IMG/VR virus record: IMGVR_UViG_3300043567_000426 | Location: 1 to 61,014 of that record | Reading direction: 5' to 3' (one strand) | Origin: a virus | Taxonomy: Duplodnaviria; Caudoviricetes | DNA length: 61,014 bases | Part shown: one piece after another, positions 7,432 through 47,060 of the stretch | Layout of the letters: every line of letters begins with the position of its first letter | Position numbering within the stretch: position 1 is the stretch's first letter | The notes under the pieces: generated by a model | Databases searched by the model: none | What the model was told of the DNA's origin: nothing | Seen by the model: only the letters and a program-made list of their open reading frames with translations | Program-made: the position numbers and the translations under genes

Positions 7432-8016
7432 ATGGCGAATACGTTCGCGCCTTTCGGTTTTCGTCAGTATAGCGGGAACGGCTCTGCCCCGACTTATGAA
7501 CAAGTCGAGATGCAGATTGCTTCCAACTATACGACTGCTATTTTCTTTGGTGACGCTGTCCTTCAAGACACTAACGGCACGATCACGCGCGCTGGCGATG
7601 CGCCAACGACGCAGCTTGCTGGCGTGTTCCAAGGCTGTAAATATCTTTCAACGTCTCAGAAGCGCACTGTTTGGTCAAACTACTGGCCGGGCTCAGACAA
7701 CAATGGCGTTGTCTATGCTTACGTCGTAAACGATCCAAACGCTCGTTTCCTTGTGCAAGCTGGCAGCACCACGAATGTGACGCAGGCTGGCGTTGGCGCC
7801 TCAATTTCGCTTGCTGGCGGCTCCGCTGGTAACACGGCGAACGGCATCTCTGGCATGTATGTTGAAACGCTTGGAACGTCTTCGACGGCTCCTTTCCGCG
7901 TCATCAGTCTTGTCACTGACCCGCCAGGTTCAAACGGCACCGATACGGCCTCGAATGCTAACTACGTTATTGTTGGCTTCTTGAACGTCTCGACCAAGAC
8001 GCTTGTCACAATCTAA
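7432..8016 (+). CDS. Capsid-associated (decoration/cement-like) protein
   Basis: AAGGAG RBS; beta-rich; immediately upstream of the major capsid gene. Confidence 0.6.
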   Translation: MANTFAPFGFRQYSGNGSAPTYEQVEMQIASNYTTAIFFGDAVLQDTNGTITRAGDAPTTQLAGVFQGCKYLSTSQKRTVWSNYWPGSDNNGVVYAYVVNDPNARFLVQAGSTTNVTQAGVGASISLAGGSAGNTANGISGMYVETLGTSSTAPFRVISLVTDPPGSNGTDTASNANYVIVGFLNVSTKTLVTI

Positions 8017-8029
8017 GGAGTAAGGACCA

Positions 8030-8941
8030 ATGGCTGTTAATCTTTCTGCCATTAAAGACCTTCTCCTCCCCGGTCTCCGTGGGGTTGAAGGCAAATACGA
8101 GCAGATCCCGTCGCAATACGACAAGATCTTCACGAAGCATGATTCAAAAATGGCTTTGGAACGCACCGCTGAAATGCGCTTCCTTGGTCTTGCACAGCTG
8201 AAAACCGAAGGCGCTCAGACCGCTTTCGATAACGGCGCTGGCGAACGCTACGTCTATAACCAAGAGCATACTGAAATTGCTCTAGGCTATGCGATTACGC
8301 GTAAGGCAATCGATGATAACCTGTATAAGACACAGTTTATGCCATCGAACCTTGGCCTTATTGAATCGTTCCAGCAGACGAAGGAAATTTACGGCGCCAA
8401 CGTGTTAAACACGGCGACGACGTATAATGCTTCGATCGGCGGTGACGGTAAGGCCCTTATCGCTACAGACCATCCTATCGATGGCGGCACGGTTGCTAAC
8501 CGTCCTGCGGTTGATGTTGATCTGAACGAAGCGACGTTGTTGAACGGCATGATTTCGATCAGAACAAACTTTAAAGACCAAGCTGGTCTTAAAGTATTTG
8601 CTCGCGGTCGTCGTCTTGTTGTTCCGCCTGCTCTGGAACCAGTTGCAATTCGTCTTACTAAGACTGAACTGCGCCCAGGAACGGCAGATAATGACGTCAA
8701 TGCGATCATGATGACTGCTGGCGGATTGCCAGAAGGCTACATGGTCAACGACTATCTGACGTCTGCTCGTGCATGGTTCTTGCTCACGAACATTGATGGG
8801 CTCTCATATATGGAGCGCGTAAAGTTCGAGTCCGACATGCAAGTCGATTTTGTGACTGACAACTTACTCGTAAAGGGTTATGAACGTTACAGTTTCGGCT
8901 ATTACAACTGGCGTTCGATCTTCGGATCTTTCCCAACGTAA
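8030..8941 (+). CDS. Major capsid protein (Mu gpT-like, HK97 fold)
   Basis: 303 aa; LLLPGL N-terminus, K.EG....D, ALGYAIT..AIDDNLY, LVVPPALE, RYSFG..NWR..FGS. Confidence 0.85.
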   Translation: MAVNLSAIKDLLLPGLRGVEGKYEQIPSQYDKIFTKHDSKMALERTAEMRFLGLAQLKTEGAQTAFDNGAGERYVYNQEHTEIALGYAITRKAIDDNLYKTQFMPSNLGLIESFQQTKEIYGANVLNTATTYNASIGGDGKALIATDHPIDGGTVANRPAVDVDLNEATLLNGMISIRTNFKDQAGLKVFARGRRLVVPPALEPVAIRLTKTELRPGTADNDVNAIMMTAGGLPEGYMVNDYLTSARAWFLLTNIDGLSYMERVKFESDMQVDFVTDNLLVKGYERYSFGYYNWRSIFGSFPT

Positions 8942-12454: not shown

Positions 12455-14723
<2,269 letters not shown>

Positions 14724-44652: not shown

Positions 44653-44737
44653 CGCATCTTGTCGAGCCTCGCGGCGTCACTGTGTCGCGTAACGCAAGGT
44701 TGCGTGGCGCGTCGTATCTCAATGCCTTACAACGCAA
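44653..44737 (+). ncRNA. Pentamer tract U1 (17 x [CGC-like + NN]); putative guide RNA
   Basis: cgcAT cttGT cgaGC ctcGC ggcGT cacTG tgtCG cgtAA cgcAA ggtTG cgtGG cgcGT cgtAT ctcAA tgcCT tacAA cgcAA. Confidence 0.75.
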
Positions 44738-44770
44738 CGTTTATCTAACGCAAACTAAATGGAGATTGAA

Positions 44771-45340
44771 ATGAGAATGTGCCGTATTAAAATTAAATCC
44801 ATCACGCCTTATTCAGCATCGCGTCCTGTCGATATTGAGAGAAATAAATCGGAAGGCCATGAGGAATTTGACAAGCGCATTTGGCGCGAGAAAGCGCACT
44901 TCACAAAAGATGAAGATGTTTTTATTCCCGGCGTTTCTTTCAAGCTGGCATTGGATGAAGTTGCATCTATGCTTAATGAAAAGATCAAAGGTAAAGGCAA
45001 TCAGACTTACGGAAAGATTGTTTCCACAGCAACTGTAGCAATGAGTGATCTTTTTATTAGTGTTAAAAAATCAGATCTAAAATCTATCACGATCTTTGCT
45101 AACCTTGATGGCAAGCGCGGCGGAACTGTTCGCGGAAATAGAACTTTCCCTATTGTGCCATCATGGGAAGGATCTGTTGATTTCCAGATCTTTAATGATG
45201 AACTTCCTGCGGAAGTCTTTGAGCGTTATATGACGCAAGCCGGATTGCTTACAGGCGTAGGCCGTGGGCGTCCGGGCATGAAGGCCCCTGCGGGTAATGG
45301 TCGTTTCCAGCCAATATCTTTTGAGTGGTCGGAAATTTAA
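44771..45340 (+). CDS. Stand-alone RAMP / Cas7-like protein
   Basis: N-terminal strand IKIKSITP, FIPGVSFKLAL (cf. IPGSSLKGAL in Cas7-group RAMPs), C-terminal G-rich loop GVGRGRP...GNGRF; 189 aa; no other cas genes nearby. Confidence 0.75.
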   Translation: MRMCRIKIKSITPYSASRPVDIERNKSEGHEEFDKRIWREKAHFTKDEDVFIPGVSFKLALDEVASMLNEKIKGKGNQTYGKIVSTATVAMSDLFISVKKSDLKSITIFANLDGKRGGTVRGNRTFPIVPSWEGSVDFQIFNDELPAEVFERYMTQAGLLTGVGRGRPGMKAPAGNGRFQPISFEWSEI

Positions 45341-45344
45341 TATT

Positions 45345-45601
45345 CGCACCATGACGTTTCGCCACGCGGCGCGACTCTTCTATCTGCAACGCAACGATAG
45401 ACAGGAGTTAACATCAAAAATGCTAGAGATCTATTTAAAAAATAGAAAGGTTTAACATCGCCTCGAAACTAATTGCGACGAAGCTAACCGTGGCGACACG
45501 CTGCGCAATACAACGCAACGGTTCATTAGACAATTTATTGTCGCTCTGTGCCGACCCGCGTCGTTACGCATCTTGACGAGTCGCGTAGCAACTCAACGCA
45601 A
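45345..45601 (+). ncRNA. Pentamer tracts U2 (45345-45394), U3 (45459-45518) and U4 (45542-45601)
   Basis: 10, 12 and 12 in-phase units, each ending in AA units with a final CGCAA; AT-rich linkers. Confidence 0.75.
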
Positions 45602-45622
45602 CAAATCACCAAGGAGAGTAAA

Positions 45623-46114
45623 ATGCCTAGAAGGCCAATGTTTAAGCAATCAGAAGAGACAATAAAAATTATTGCTCTCTTTAAGGAAATGCCGATTGGT
45701 AAGGAAATATCGTATCAAGACGCATCAGCAATCGTAGGGTTTAAGATAACGTCAACGCTTCCAGCATATCAGACAGCAAAGAAAGCTGCGGAGCGGGATC
45801 ATAACGTCGTTGTAGAAAGCATCAGAAGCTTTGGCTTTGTGCGCATTGACGGCACTGGCATGGTCGATCGCGCAAGCCGATTCTTTAAGAAAGTTCGCAA
45901 GGGCTCGCGCCGGGAGGCCCATGTGCAGGAAATCGCCATAACCACAAATCTCACGCGCGGTCAAATGATAACCGCGACTGAGCAGCTATCGCGCTTACGA
46001 ATATTAGAGACGACCGCATCAAGAGTTAAGTCTAGTAAAAACAAAGACGATGATGCGCTAAATAATTTTGTGTTTGACAATAGAGAAGCTTTGAAGGCTC
46101 TATTGACGAAATAA
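45623..46114 (+). CDS. Basic 163-aa unknown protein embedded in the pentamer array
   Basis: AAGGAG RBS before ATG 45623; flanked on both sides by tracts. Confidence 0.65.
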   Translation: MPRRPMFKQSEETIKIIALFKEMPIGKEISYQDASAIVGFKITSTLPAYQTAKKAAERDHNVVVESIRSFGFVRIDGTGMVDRASRFFKKVRKGSRREAHVQEIAITTNLTRGQMITATEQLSRLRILETTASRVKSSKNKDDDALNNFVFDNREALKALLTK

Positions 46115-46116
46115 TG

Positions 46117-46596
46117 CGGGACGCTGCTCGACGCTTTGCCGCGCGGCGCTTCTTGGCGACTTGTCGCTAATCGTAACGCCCGATTCTGCAACTCAACGCA
46201 ACGGTTCATTAGATGATTTACTACCGCAACGCTACACGCCTAGTCTTCCTGCAACGCTCTGCTCCGCATCTTAGCGCGCCTCAGTGTCACGCAACACAAC
46301 GCAACGGTTTATTTGTCAATTTACCCTCGCGGCTCATCGCACTACCCCTCAACGCAACGCAGGGTGGCGCTCTGCAACTCAACGCAACGGTTCATTATGC
46401 AATTTATTCACGCCGCTAATCGCATTGTGCCTCAACGCACTGCGTCGTGTCGCCGTGCAACTCAACGCAACGGTTCATTATGAAATTTATCTCCGTCACG
46501 CTTGGCTCCTCGCCGTATTGCATCGTTTCTCAGCATGGCGCACAGTCACGCACAGCACGGCTCCTTGACGCTACGCCCAGCAACTCAACGCAACGG
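46117..46596 (+). ncRNA. Pentamer tracts U5-U9 (46117-46201, 46225-46304, 46328-46387, 46411-46470, 46494-46593)
   Basis: 17, 16, 12, 12 and 20 in-phase units; shared end GCAAC(T/A)CAACGCAACGG followed by a TTCATTA..AATTTA-like linker. Confidence 0.85.
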
Positions 46597-46604
46597 AATA
46601 TTAA

Positions 46605-47060
46605 ATGACTGAAGCATGCATCATGGGAATAGATCCCGGCGTCTCTGGCGCCGTGGCATTTTATTTTCCAGATTACCCTAATAGAATTTCGGTATATGAT
46701 GCGCCATCGGTAGGGAAAGAAATTAATGCTCCAGCACTTGCGCAGCTTATTAAACAATATAGCCCAACAATTTGTTATATCGAATCAGTCAACGCAATGC
46801 CAAAGCAAGGCGTCACAAGCAGCTTCAACTTCGGACAAGCATATGGCTGCGTTCGAGGAGTGGTTGCAGCGTGTGGAGTTCCGACTGTTTTGGTAAGCCC
46901 ACGAAAGTGGAAAAGCTTTTTTGCTTTGGATTCGGATAAAGAAAAATCCAGAAGACTAGCAATAATGAAATGGCCTGATGGCGGTCATTTTAACAGAAAG
47001 AAAGATGACGGCCGCGCGGAAGCGGCCTTGATTGCTTTATATGGGAGCAAACAGTTATGA
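46605..47060 (+). CDS. RuvC-like Holliday junction resolvase
   Basis: GIDPG..GA, IE.V.AMP.QGV.S.FNFG, P..WK, DGRAEA.LIA. Confidence 0.85.
   Translation: MTEACIMGIDPGVSGAVAFYFPDYPNRISVYDAPSVGKEINAPALAQLIKQYSPTICYIESVNAMPKQGVTSSFNFGQAYGCVRGVVAACGVPTVLVSPRKWKSFFALDSDKEKSRRLAIMKWPDGGHFNRKKDDGRAEAALIALYGSKQL

What the first reader, a model, noticed from the sequence alone, without database searches (positions are those of the whole stretch)
46112..46201. Tract U5 decodes to the arm-binding motif of tyrosine integrases
Seen: the NN series is (TG) GA TG GA TT CG GG TT GG CT CG AT AA CC TC. Treating each NN as codon positions 1-2 with the third base skipped gives (W/C)(D/E)(C/W)(D/E)(F/L) R G (F/L) G L R (I/M)(K/N) P S. 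Established: WDxELxGFGLRVxPSG is the N-terminal arm-DNA-binding signature (Arm-DNA-bind_3/DUF4102) of P4-like integrases. Inference: this guide targets an integrase gene of a prophage, satellite or island and ignores the wobble base, so synonymous escape would not work. The leading TG comes from the unit overlapping the upstream stop and is less certain.
Basis: partly seen in the sequence, partly recalled or inferred. Interest (0 to 1): 0.93.

Follow-up and report, generated by a model that had tools for sequence, protein, structure and literature searches.

The report
Phage VIPR guide aimed at integrases
This stretch is one guide RNA of a phage-borne VIPR system, a recently described relative of CRISPR, and its two-letter code matches the DNA-binding motif of the integrases that rival mobile elements use to enter and leave the host chromosome.

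Summary
Window 44,659-46,604 is a VIPR locus (Viral Interference Programmable Repeat; bioRxiv 10.64898/2026.04.26.720920). It holds a Vipr RAMP gene (44759-45340), a vap-like gene (45623-46114) and nine tracts of 5-nt repeats, each a fixed triplet plus a free NN.

A profile of the Vipr family hits the solved SUSP1 Vipr protein (PDB 36pp_D, E=1.1e-29). The model (pLDDT 93.9) finds Cas7-type RAMPs.

Tract U5 (46113-46204) has 15 variable NN, exactly as listed. Read under the published 1-nt skip rule, it matches two metagenome contigs (L222, L231) at 29 of 30 positions. The match is in frame, inside the Arm-DNA-bind_3 domain of a tyrosine integrase. L232 matches at 28 of 30. Other skips give 17-18 of 30, and 200 shuffled NN orders give at most 21.

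A guide from a sister phage hits the catalytic end of the same integrase at 23 of 28.

Caveats:
- No 30/30 target was found.
- Three of the 12 relaxed-pattern hits lie in deoxyhypusine synthase genes (25/30).
- No RNA data exist.

The repeat is CGY/NN rather than the canonical GGY/NN, and this co-varies with two Vipr residues.

The parts
44659..44738 (+). vrRNA-like tract up0 upstream of vipr: 16 pentamers ending ACAAC GCAAC
   Evidence: Pentamer layout; periodicity scan; sequence
44759..45340 (+). vipr: 193-aa RAMP protein (Vipr homologue), G-loop GVGRGRP
   Evidence: Profile A1 hits PDB 36pp_D 'SUSP1 Vipr protein' at E=1.1e-29. AlphaFold model pLDDT 93.9. Foldseek top hits are Cas7-family RAMPs at E=1.8e-8. 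The single sequence alone gives no PDB hit and no Pfam hit; it matches phrog_4652, of unknown function.
45341..45395 (+). vrRNA-like tract up1: 11 pentamers ending GCAAC GCAAC
45455..45519 (+). vrRNA-like tract up2: 13 pentamers
45520..45602 (+). Unit A (83 nt): AT box GGTTCATTAGACAATTTA, 10 variable pentamers, then GCAAC TCAAC GCAAC
45623..46114 (+). vap-like accessory gene, 163 aa, function not established
   Evidence: Synteny: 29 of the 57 Vipr-bearing loci fetched by DNA pattern also carry a homologue. No Pfam or PHROG family. The profile gives only weak hints to winged-helix/HTH DNA-binding domains, E 0.02-0.7. The single-sequence model is poor, pLDDT 44.6.
46113..46204 (+). Tract U5 (the finding): 15 variable pentamers (NN at 46115-46186) and the constant GCAAC TCAAC GCAAC GG. 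The first pentamer overlaps the vap stop codon.
   Evidence: Target matches of 29/30.
46203..46305 (+). Unit F (103 nt), shared with relatives L009/L011
46306..46388 (+). Unit G (83 nt), shared with relatives
46389..46471 (+). Unit H (83 nt), present in the window, absent in relatives and in one contig of run X17 (exact 83-nt skip, 46372 to 46456)
46472..46594 (+). Unit I (123 nt, 18 variable pentamers), the last unit before the RuvC-like gene that starts at 46605

Best explanation
Window 44,659-46,604 is a phage-encoded VIPR system.

Inferred from the published mechanism: the tracts are transcribed on the + strand into vrRNAs. Vipr protomers (ORF 44759-45340) bind one per 5-nt repeat, bury the fixed triplet (here CGY rather than GGY) and expose the NN pairs. 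The exposed pairs then base-pair with double-stranded DNA while skipping every third target base.

Shown here: U5 is one such guide. Its 15 NN pairs spell codon positions 1 and 2 of W-D-x-E-L-R-G-F-G-L-R-(I/M)-K-P-S, the core of the arm-DNA-binding domain (Pfam Arm-DNA-bind_3) of tyrosine integrases.

Inferred: binding inside the integrase gene of a rival integrative element in the host (satellite, prophage or island) silences that gene and so blocks the element's excision or integration. Because wobble bases are not read, synonymous changes in the target do not escape.

In summary, the protein family, the repeat architecture, the NN series and its near-perfect in-frame matches are shown. Transcription, RNP formation, silencing and the identity of the real target element are inferred from the SUSP1 work.
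For: (1) Vipr identity. A profile of 36 homologues (A1) hits PDB 36pp_D 'SUSP1 Vipr protein' at E=1.1e-29 over residues 1-189. The model has pLDDT 93.9, and its Foldseek top hits are type VII Cas7, Csm3 and Cmr4.

(2) Link between repeats and protein. Of 120 viral loci fetched only by the DNA pattern (CGCNN)5CGC, 57 carry a Vipr homologue and 29 also carry the vap-like gene. In every locus where four or more tandem units were found, the dominant CGC or GGC repeat lies on the vipr strand, apart from L212, whose triplet on that strand was GCG.

(3) Repeat architecture. NN positions carry 0.01-0.02 bits and frame positions 0.5-0.8 bits. Unit lengths are 18+5n. Units come and go between phages whose vap proteins are 96% identical, and within the population.

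(4) Target. The relaxed pattern (22 fixed bases) gave 12 metagenome loci. L222 and L231 match U5 at 29/30 and L232 at 28/30, all in frame with the skip at the wobble base. The footprint is residues 63-77 of a 466-aa ORF with PF13356 (residues 44-132, E=1.4e-13) and PF00589 (E=1e-17). Nine of the 12 hits lie in Arm-DNA-bind_3 ORFs.

(5) Controls on L222. Skip 0/1/2/3 gives 18/29/17/17 of 30. Two hundred shuffled NN orders average 17.4, with a maximum of 21.

(6) Independent second guide. Tract C of sister phage L009 matches the same integrase at 1759-1800, in frame, 23/28, over GHAKRGVTERYYIR. None of 100 shuffles reached 23 on the 13 loci; the maximum was 22.

(7) No window guide reaches 80% on the window's own genome; the maximum is 75%.

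(8) Literature, sections read. The 1-nt skip rule and wobble alignment are in 10.64898/2026.04.26.720920. SUSP1 VIPR silencing a satellite's excision recombinase is in 10.64898/2026.10.15.759431, section 6.
Against: - No perfect target was found. The full 14-NN pattern has 0 hits in genome contigs and metagenome contigs. The 11-NN core has 0 hits in genome contigs. The 18-base pattern has one hit in viral contigs, at 25/30.
- L222 and L231 were retrieved with a pattern built from the hypothesis, so only 8 of the 30 positions were free; 7 of those 8 match.
- Three of the 12 hits (L223 and L229 by Pfam; L230 by an identical footprint and ORF length, not scanned) lie in deoxyhypusine synthase genes at 25/30. 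The published 80% threshold is therefore not integrase-specific here.
- The matching contigs have 58-64% G+C against 48.9% for the phage, so they are probably not from its host.
- U5's fixed triplets are degenerate, with 8 of 18 pentamers in the exact frame. Mutating GGY abolished silencing in SUSP1 (fig. S12 legend of the first preprint).
- The other eight window guides found no target. The two that were scanned, I and F, gave 0 hits, and none exceeded shuffles on the 13 target loci.
- The second guide's 23/28 is only one above the best shuffle (22).
- No conserved folded 3' tail was seen. The array folds worse than shuffles, z=+1.69.
Confidence: 0.85

Rival explanations
1. U5 is a decaying or orphan tract. 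The locus is a VIPR system, but U5 no longer works as a guide, and its likeness to integrase motifs is a fossil of past targeting or a chance match.
For: Only 8 of U5's 18 pentamers keep the exact frame. U5 is absent from the two sister contigs, where four other units stand in its place. No 30/30 target was found.
Against: A 29/30 in-frame match is far above shuffles, whose maximum is 21. The other window tracts are just as degenerate, with 5-9 exact frames each, so degeneracy is a trait of this lineage and not of U5. U5 is present in contigs of all four runs that were laid (table 2, bins 46112-46279).
Confidence: 0.08
2. U5 is a working guide, but its real target is another gene that shares the peptide, such as a deoxyhypusine synthase-like gene or a host gene, and not an integrase.
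For: Three of the 12 relaxed-pattern hits are in PF01916 deoxyhypusine synthase ORFs at 25/30 (83%), above the published 80% threshold.
Against: The three best hits (29, 29 and 28 of 30) are all in Arm-DNA-bind_3 ORFs. The deoxyhypusine synthase hits miss the first and third NN entirely. A second guide of the lineage hits the same integrase. Published VIPR targets are mobile-element genes, including a recombinase.
Confidence: 0.04
3. The array acts as DNA rather than as guide RNA: iterons or handcuffing sites around a regulator gene, a replication origin, or phased promoters. On this reading the 5-bp period serves protein binding or DNA mechanics.
For: This was my first reading. The repeats flank a small gene, as iterons flank a rep gene. 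Unit lengths are close to whole helical turns (83, 103, 123). The locus lies beside a primase-helicase and a RuvC-like gene.
Against: Units of 93 and 98 nt break the helical phasing. The adjacent protein is a Vipr RAMP. The NN positions carry no composition bias yet spell an integrase motif at 29/30. Promoter-like sites are at the chance level, 5 found against 4.1 expected. A phage with 87% identical RuvC lacks the whole locus, so the locus is not a core origin.
Confidence: 0.03

Closest known systems
Type II VIPR of Escherichia phage SUSP1 (Vipr, vap1, vrRNA1-4); bioRxiv 10.64898/2026.04.26.720920, 10.64898/2026.04.26.720927 and 10.64898/2026.10.15.759431
   Same: A small RAMP protein homologous by profile (E=1.1e-29). 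A two-gene operon with guides both upstream and in an array downstream. 5-nt repeats of a fixed triplet plus a free NN. A constant 3' end after each tract. A 1-nt skip match to coding DNA with the skip at the wobble base. A recombinase gene of a rival integrative element as the target.
   Different: The fixed triplet is CGY, not GGY. The residues that read G1 in SUSP1 (H17 and D177, per the structure preprint) are Ser and Arg here. The constant 3' part is two or three (K)CAAC pentamers plus an AT-rich 18-mer, with no detected fold, whereas SUSP1 has a pseudoknotted tail. Guides have 9-18 variable repeats. The host is an unknown freshwater bacterium. The vap-like protein showed no detectable similarity to any solved structure.
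Non-canonical VIPR repeat types: NNNGG, YNNNG and NNNNG in 10.64898/2026.04.26.720920 (Methods section 20); GAC/NN, CAC/NN, WGT/NN and TGH/NN in 10.64898/2026.10.21.760802 (passages read)
   Same: 5-nt period, a Vipr-like fold next door, and a fixed triplet that departs from GGY. YNNCG fits the published degenerate class YNNNG.
   Different: CGC/NN or CGY/NN is not named in any passage that I read. The figures (S17 and S10 of those papers) and the supplementary tables could not be seen and may already show it.
CRISPR class 1 backbone (Cas7, Csm3, Cmr4 with crRNA)
   Same: RAMP fold with a G-loop. One protomer per repeat of the guide, with periodic bases withheld from pairing. Arrays whose variable units differ between close relatives.
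   Different: 5-nt period with 3 of 5 bases withheld, against 6-nt with 1 of 6. The guide information is interleaved with the repeat, rather than lying in a spacer between repeats. There is no adaptation module and no nuclease in the locus. It is carried by a phage.

Membership tests
VIPR system | Vipr protein: a ~20 kDa stand-alone RAMP (RRM core, G-loop, thumb) | tested here: met
   193 aa. Profile A1 against PDB 36pp_D 'SUSP1 Vipr protein', E=1.1e-29. Model pLDDT 93.9. Foldseek hits to Cas7/Csm3/Cmr4 from E=1.8e-8. G-loop GVGRGRP...GNGRF.
VIPR system | Tandem pentanucleotide repeats: a fixed trinucleotide alternating with a hypervariable NN, about 9-16 per RNA | tested here: met
   146 pentamers: frame positions 0.53-0.77 bits, NN 0.01-0.02 bits. 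9-18 variable pentamers per tract. U5 has 15.
VIPR system | The canonical fixed triplet is GGY (YNNGG) | tested here: not met
   The triplet here is C(73%)-G(68%)-Y(84%), that is YNNCG, and strictly CGC in GC-rich relatives. The first preprint allows 'a related consensus' and lists YNNNG, so this does not exclude membership.
VIPR system | An invariable 3' tail after the repeat tract, structured in the SUSP1 clade | tested here: inconclusive
   All nine tracts end in CAACGCAAC. In-array units continue with GG + TTCATTAKNNNATTTA. No fold was detected: the array is less stable than shuffles, z=+1.69, and Rfam gives no match. RNA ends are unknown.
VIPR system | Adjacent vap accessory gene with a DNA-related function | tested here: inconclusive
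   A conserved 163-aa neighbour is present in 29 of 57 Vipr loci. There are only weak winged-helix/HTH hints, E 0.02-0.7. The Atlas neighbours are unnamed viral proteins.
VIPR system | Guides match coding DNA by the 1-nt skip rule, with the skip at the wobble base, at >=80% NN match | tested here: met
   U5: 29/30 on L222 and L231, 28/30 on L232, in frame. Skip 0/2/3 gives 18/17/17 on L222. This was shown for U5 and for relative guide C (23/28) only. The other eight window guides have no known target.
VIPR system | No self-targeting at >=80% NN match | tested here: met
   The best self match of the nine window guides, with the arrays masked, is 61-75%.
VIPR system | vrRNAs are expressed and co-purify with Vipr; the complex silences transcription | not testable with these tools
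   No RNA run holds the stretch.
Target: tyrosine integrase with an Arm-DNA-bind_3 (DUF4102) N-terminal domain | The footprint lies inside a PF13356 match of an ORF that also has PF00589 | tested here: met
   L222/L231: PF13356 at residues 44-132 (51.3 bits), PF00589 at 269-424 (64.9 bits), footprint at residues 63-77. L226, L227, L233 and L221 also carry both domains. L224, L228 and L232 are short or cut ORFs with PF13356 only, and L225 is below the cut-off (24.3 bits).

The most novel reading that the evidence does not exclude
The CGY/NN lineage is a separate, orthogonal dialect of the VIPR code. The first fixed base is read as C through a Ser/Arg pair at the positions where SUSP1 uses His17/Asp177 to read G, so the two kinds of Vipr would not load each other's guides.

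In freshwater phages of this lineage, the guides next to vap are aimed at the two most conserved coding motifs of DUF4102-type integrases: the arm-binding WDxELRGFGLR core and the catalytic GH...Y box. One guide could then immobilise a whole family of integrative satellites or islands, whatever their codon usage.
Probability: 0.4. Interest if true: 0.6.

Novelty: new member of a known kind. Interest (0 to 1): 0.42.

Why it matters
The tools confirm that reading for this locus.

For the field, the value is incremental but concrete:
- It is a VIPR system from an uncultured lake phage with a non-GGY repeat.
- It gives a testable pair of specificity residues for the first fixed base. Ser/Arg goes with CGY in 19 of 19 called cases, and His with Asp/Glu/Asn goes with GGY in 10 of 10.
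- It is a second, independent case of VIPR aimed at a rival element's recombinase. Here the target is the arm-binding domain, and in a sister phage it is the catalytic box.

If the Ser/Arg switch is causal, it offers orthogonal programmable DNA binders. If integrase motifs are common VIPR targets, guide content could be used to infer which integrative elements a phage competes with in nature.

Tried and rejected
Early readings, dropped once the Vipr identity emerged:
- Iteron or origin array around a rep-like gene.
- TRAP-like ring protein on triplet+NN RNA.
- Rho rut sites.
- Phased promoters. Promoter-like sites were at chance, 5 against 4.1 expected.
- Pseudo-antitoxin RNA repeats.

Searches that gave nothing:
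- blastn of the array against 50,697 phage records.
- Rfam on 44-48 kb at E<=1.
- The constant box in viral contigs found only the two sister contigs plus 25 single hits without periodicity.
- RuvC relatives: 65 loci, of which only the sister contigs and L072 carry a Vipr-like gene.
- Exact U5 patterns.
- 11-NN cores of guides I and F, and a relaxed pattern for relative guide C, in viral contigs: 0 hits each.

Local replication of the skip-rule test: 254 guides against 1.8 Mb of fetched loci, skips 0-3, with shuffled and backward controls. It was uninformative. After a complexity filter it left 2 hits or fewer for skips 0-2 and 5 for skip 3, all at control level apart from skip 3, whose hits fell in only 2 loci. 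The targets are simply not among these loci.

Other points:
- No RNA holder was listed by the look-up of sequencing runs, so expression could not be examined.
- The single-sequence fold of the vap-like protein was poor, pLDDT 44.6.
- The L222 integrase has only distant relatives (<=28.5% identity) among isolated phages.
- The primase-helicase's best isolated relative is a Rhizobium phage, 36% identity over 47% of the query. That is too weak to name a host.
- Supplementary files and figures of the four preprints could not be seen. Data S3/S4 and fig. S17 of the first, and fig. S10 of 10.64898/2026.10.21.760802, may already list CGY-type repeats or integrase targets. The word 'integrase' does not occur in the main text of the first preprint.
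- My claim that CGY/NN is not named in print rests only and the passages read.
Full report
**What is there.** The window is a complete 61,014-base virus record. Between a divergent promoter region and a RuvC-like resolvase gene (46605-47060, phrog_1770) lie two genes on the + strand and nine tracts of 5-nt repeats. The genes are ORF193 (44759-45340) and ORF163 (45623-46114). Each tract ends in CAACGCAAC. Downstream of ORF163 the tracts form an array of units of 103, 83, 83 and 123 nt. Each unit is an 18-nt AT-rich box (GGTTCATTAKNNNATTTA), then variable pentamers, then GCAAC TCAAC GCAAC. U5 is the first tract after ORF163 and starts on its stop codon.

**The observation.** The 5-nt period is real. 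In 146 variable pentamers from 12 tracts, the three frame positions are G 68%, C 59% and C 73%. The two NN positions are flat, at 0.01-0.02 bits. Each tract beats 2000 shuffles at p <= 0.002. Unit lengths in the window and in two sister contigs are 83, 93, 98, 103 and 123, always 18+5n.

**Turnover.** Two IMG/VR contigs whose ORF163 is 96% identical share units F, G and I. They lack U5 and H, and carry four other units (B', C, D, E) where U5 stands. A contig of run X17 skips exactly the 83 nt of unit H. A phage with 87% identical RuvC has no such locus. The locus is therefore accessory, and its units come and go quickly.

**Identity.**
- A contig in run X18 shared the constant box but had strict CGCNN flanks.
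- Arrays such as L131 4700-5470 are stricter copies of the window's architecture and sit next to ORF193 and ORF163 homologues. Of the 120 loci, 57 carry an ORF193 homologue and 29 carry both genes.
[quoted passage not shown] I read its Results, its Discussion and Methods sections 18, 20, 26 and 27. It describes VIPR systems: a ~20 kDa RAMP (Vipr), an accessory gene (vap), and vrRNAs of 9-16 YNNGG repeats with a constant 3' tail. The NN pairs bind double-stranded DNA while skipping one target base per repeat, usually the wobble base. The natural targets are satellites and prophages.
- A profile of 36 ORF193 homologues hits PDB 36pp_D 'SUSP1 Vipr protein' at E=1.1e-29. The single sequence does not.
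- The alignment-based model has pLDDT 93.9, and its best PDB neighbours are Cas7-family RAMPs.

The locus is a VIPR system.

**The claim about U5.**
- The exact 14-NN pattern has no hit in genome contigs or metagenome contigs, and the 11-NN core has none in genome contigs.
- An 18-base sub-pattern found one viral contig, L221: a 417-aa integrase with PF13356 and PF00589, matching at 25/30.
- A relaxed pattern fixing 22 bases (D-x-E-x-R-G-F-G-L-R-I/M-x-P-S at codon positions 1-2) found 12 metagenome loci.
- L222 and L231 read TGG GAC AGC GAA TTG CGT GGC TTC GGG CTA CGC ATG AAG CCT TCC. That is 29 of U5's 30 NN positions, and the leading TG is among the matches. The only miss is the first base of the third pair. 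L232 gives 28/30 and the rest give 25-26/30.
- L222 and L231 are the same element, 99.9% identical over 2,698 nt.
- The footprint is residues 63-77 of a 466-aa ORF with Arm-DNA-bind_3 (residues 44-132) and Phage_integrase domains.
- The three constant AA pentamers do not match the target (0 of 6), as expected if they are handle and not guide.

**Controls and results against.**
- On L222, skips of 0, 1, 2 and 3 give 18, 29, 17 and 17 of 30. Two hundred shuffled NN orders average 17.4 with a maximum of 21. This control is lenient, because L222 was selected with 22 of the 30 positions fixed. The fair statement is that 7 of the 8 free positions also match.
- Pfam on the ORFs holding the 12 footprints shows 9 in Arm-DNA-bind_3 ORFs (one below the cut-off). 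Three are in deoxyhypusine synthase genes at 25/30: two were scanned, and the third has an identical footprint and ORF length. At the published 80% threshold the match is therefore not specific to integrases. Only the top of the list is.
- The matching contigs have 58-64% G+C against 48.9% for the phage. I take them as relatives of the real target. They are recognisable because the guide reads only amino-acid-determining positions, while the skipped positions vary freely among the 11 distinct footprints (mean majority identity 0.56).
- No window guide self-targets at 80% or more.

**Second guide.** The 13 target loci were not selected with any other guide. Even so, tract C of the sister phage matches L222/L231 at 1759-1800, in frame in the same integrase, at 23/28, over GHAKRGVTERYYIR. 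By my recollection of tyrosine recombinases, this is the catalytic His...Tyr box. None of 100 shuffles reached 23; the maximum was 22. The margin is small, but the site is in the same gene. The other 11 guides stayed at shuffle level.

**Relation to what is known.**
- A later preprint (10.64898/2026.10.15.759431; outline and section 6 read) shows that SUSP1's VIPR silences the excision recombinase of its satellite at codon-determining positions.
- The structure preprint (10.64898/2026.04.26.720927; outline and section 5 read) says that G1 of GGY is read by H17 and D177.
- In the profile alignment to SUSP1 Vipr, those positions are Ser and Arg in the window protein.
- Across the 36 aligned homologues, Ser/Arg goes with CGY repeats in 19 of 19 called cases. 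The window itself was 'unclear' to the strict regular expression because its frames are degenerate. Ser/Thr goes with CGY in 2 of 2. His with Asp, Glu or Asn goes with GGY in 10 of 10. Three other combinations go with GGY, and one locus was unclear.
- Relatedness inflates these counts, because the Ser/Arg set is one clade.
- A fourth preprint (10.64898/2026.10.21.760802; passages read) reports non-canonical triplets (GAC, CAC, WGT, TGH). The first preprint lists YNNNG. CGY is not named in what I read, and the figures and supplements were not visible.

**Verdict.** The kind of system has been known since 2026, so this is a new member of it. Its own points of interest are the CGY frame with its candidate specificity residues, and integrase motifs as targets. 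Still open are the RNA ends and tail, the function of the vap-like protein, the targets of the other eight guides, and the true target element and host.

Noticed in passing
window 44759-45340, and loci of alignment A1: The first base of the fixed repeat triplet co-varies with two Vipr residues. Ser/Arg at the positions aligned to SUSP1 H17/D177 goes with CGY repeats (19 of 19 called). His with Asp/Glu/Asn goes with GGY (10 of 10). Relatedness was not controlled.
   Followed up: partly
window 46373-46455 (unit H): One contig of run X17 joins 46372 to 46456 and so skips exactly one 83-nt unit, as in sister contigs L009/L011. The unit is present or absent within the population.
   Followed up: partly
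run X18 contig laid at window 46290-46325: A 1,475-nt contig at higher depth (9.17) shares the constant box (3 differences in 36 nt) but has strict CGCNN flanks. This points to another VIPR array of the same dialect in the same lake.
   Followed up: no
L223 3131-3175, L229 8385-8429, L230 2463-2507: Deoxyhypusine synthase genes (PF01916) carry the peptide ELRGFGLRINPS and match U5 at 25/30, above the published 80% target threshold.
   Followed up: partly
L009 about 7990-8120 (= L007 2667-2800): The sister contigs carry roughly 107 extra bases, with a short ORF-like stretch, between tracts up1 and up2. The window lacks them.
   Followed up: no
L037 2200-2950: A phage with 87% identical RuvC has an unrelated ORF where the window has its VIPR locus, directly after the same divergent promoter region. 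I did not annotate the ORF with a tool.
   Followed up: no
window 13326-14415: Long runs of 9-nt-period repeats (GGN-rich units with periods of 9, 18, 27, 48, 66 and 84). They would encode collagen-like Gly-X-Y repeats, as seen in some phage tail fibres (the reading is mine and was not tested).
   Followed up: no
window 46112-46604: The array, taken as RNA, folds less stably than 98 of 100 dinucleotide shuffles (z=+1.69). It appears to be kept unstructured.
   Followed up: no
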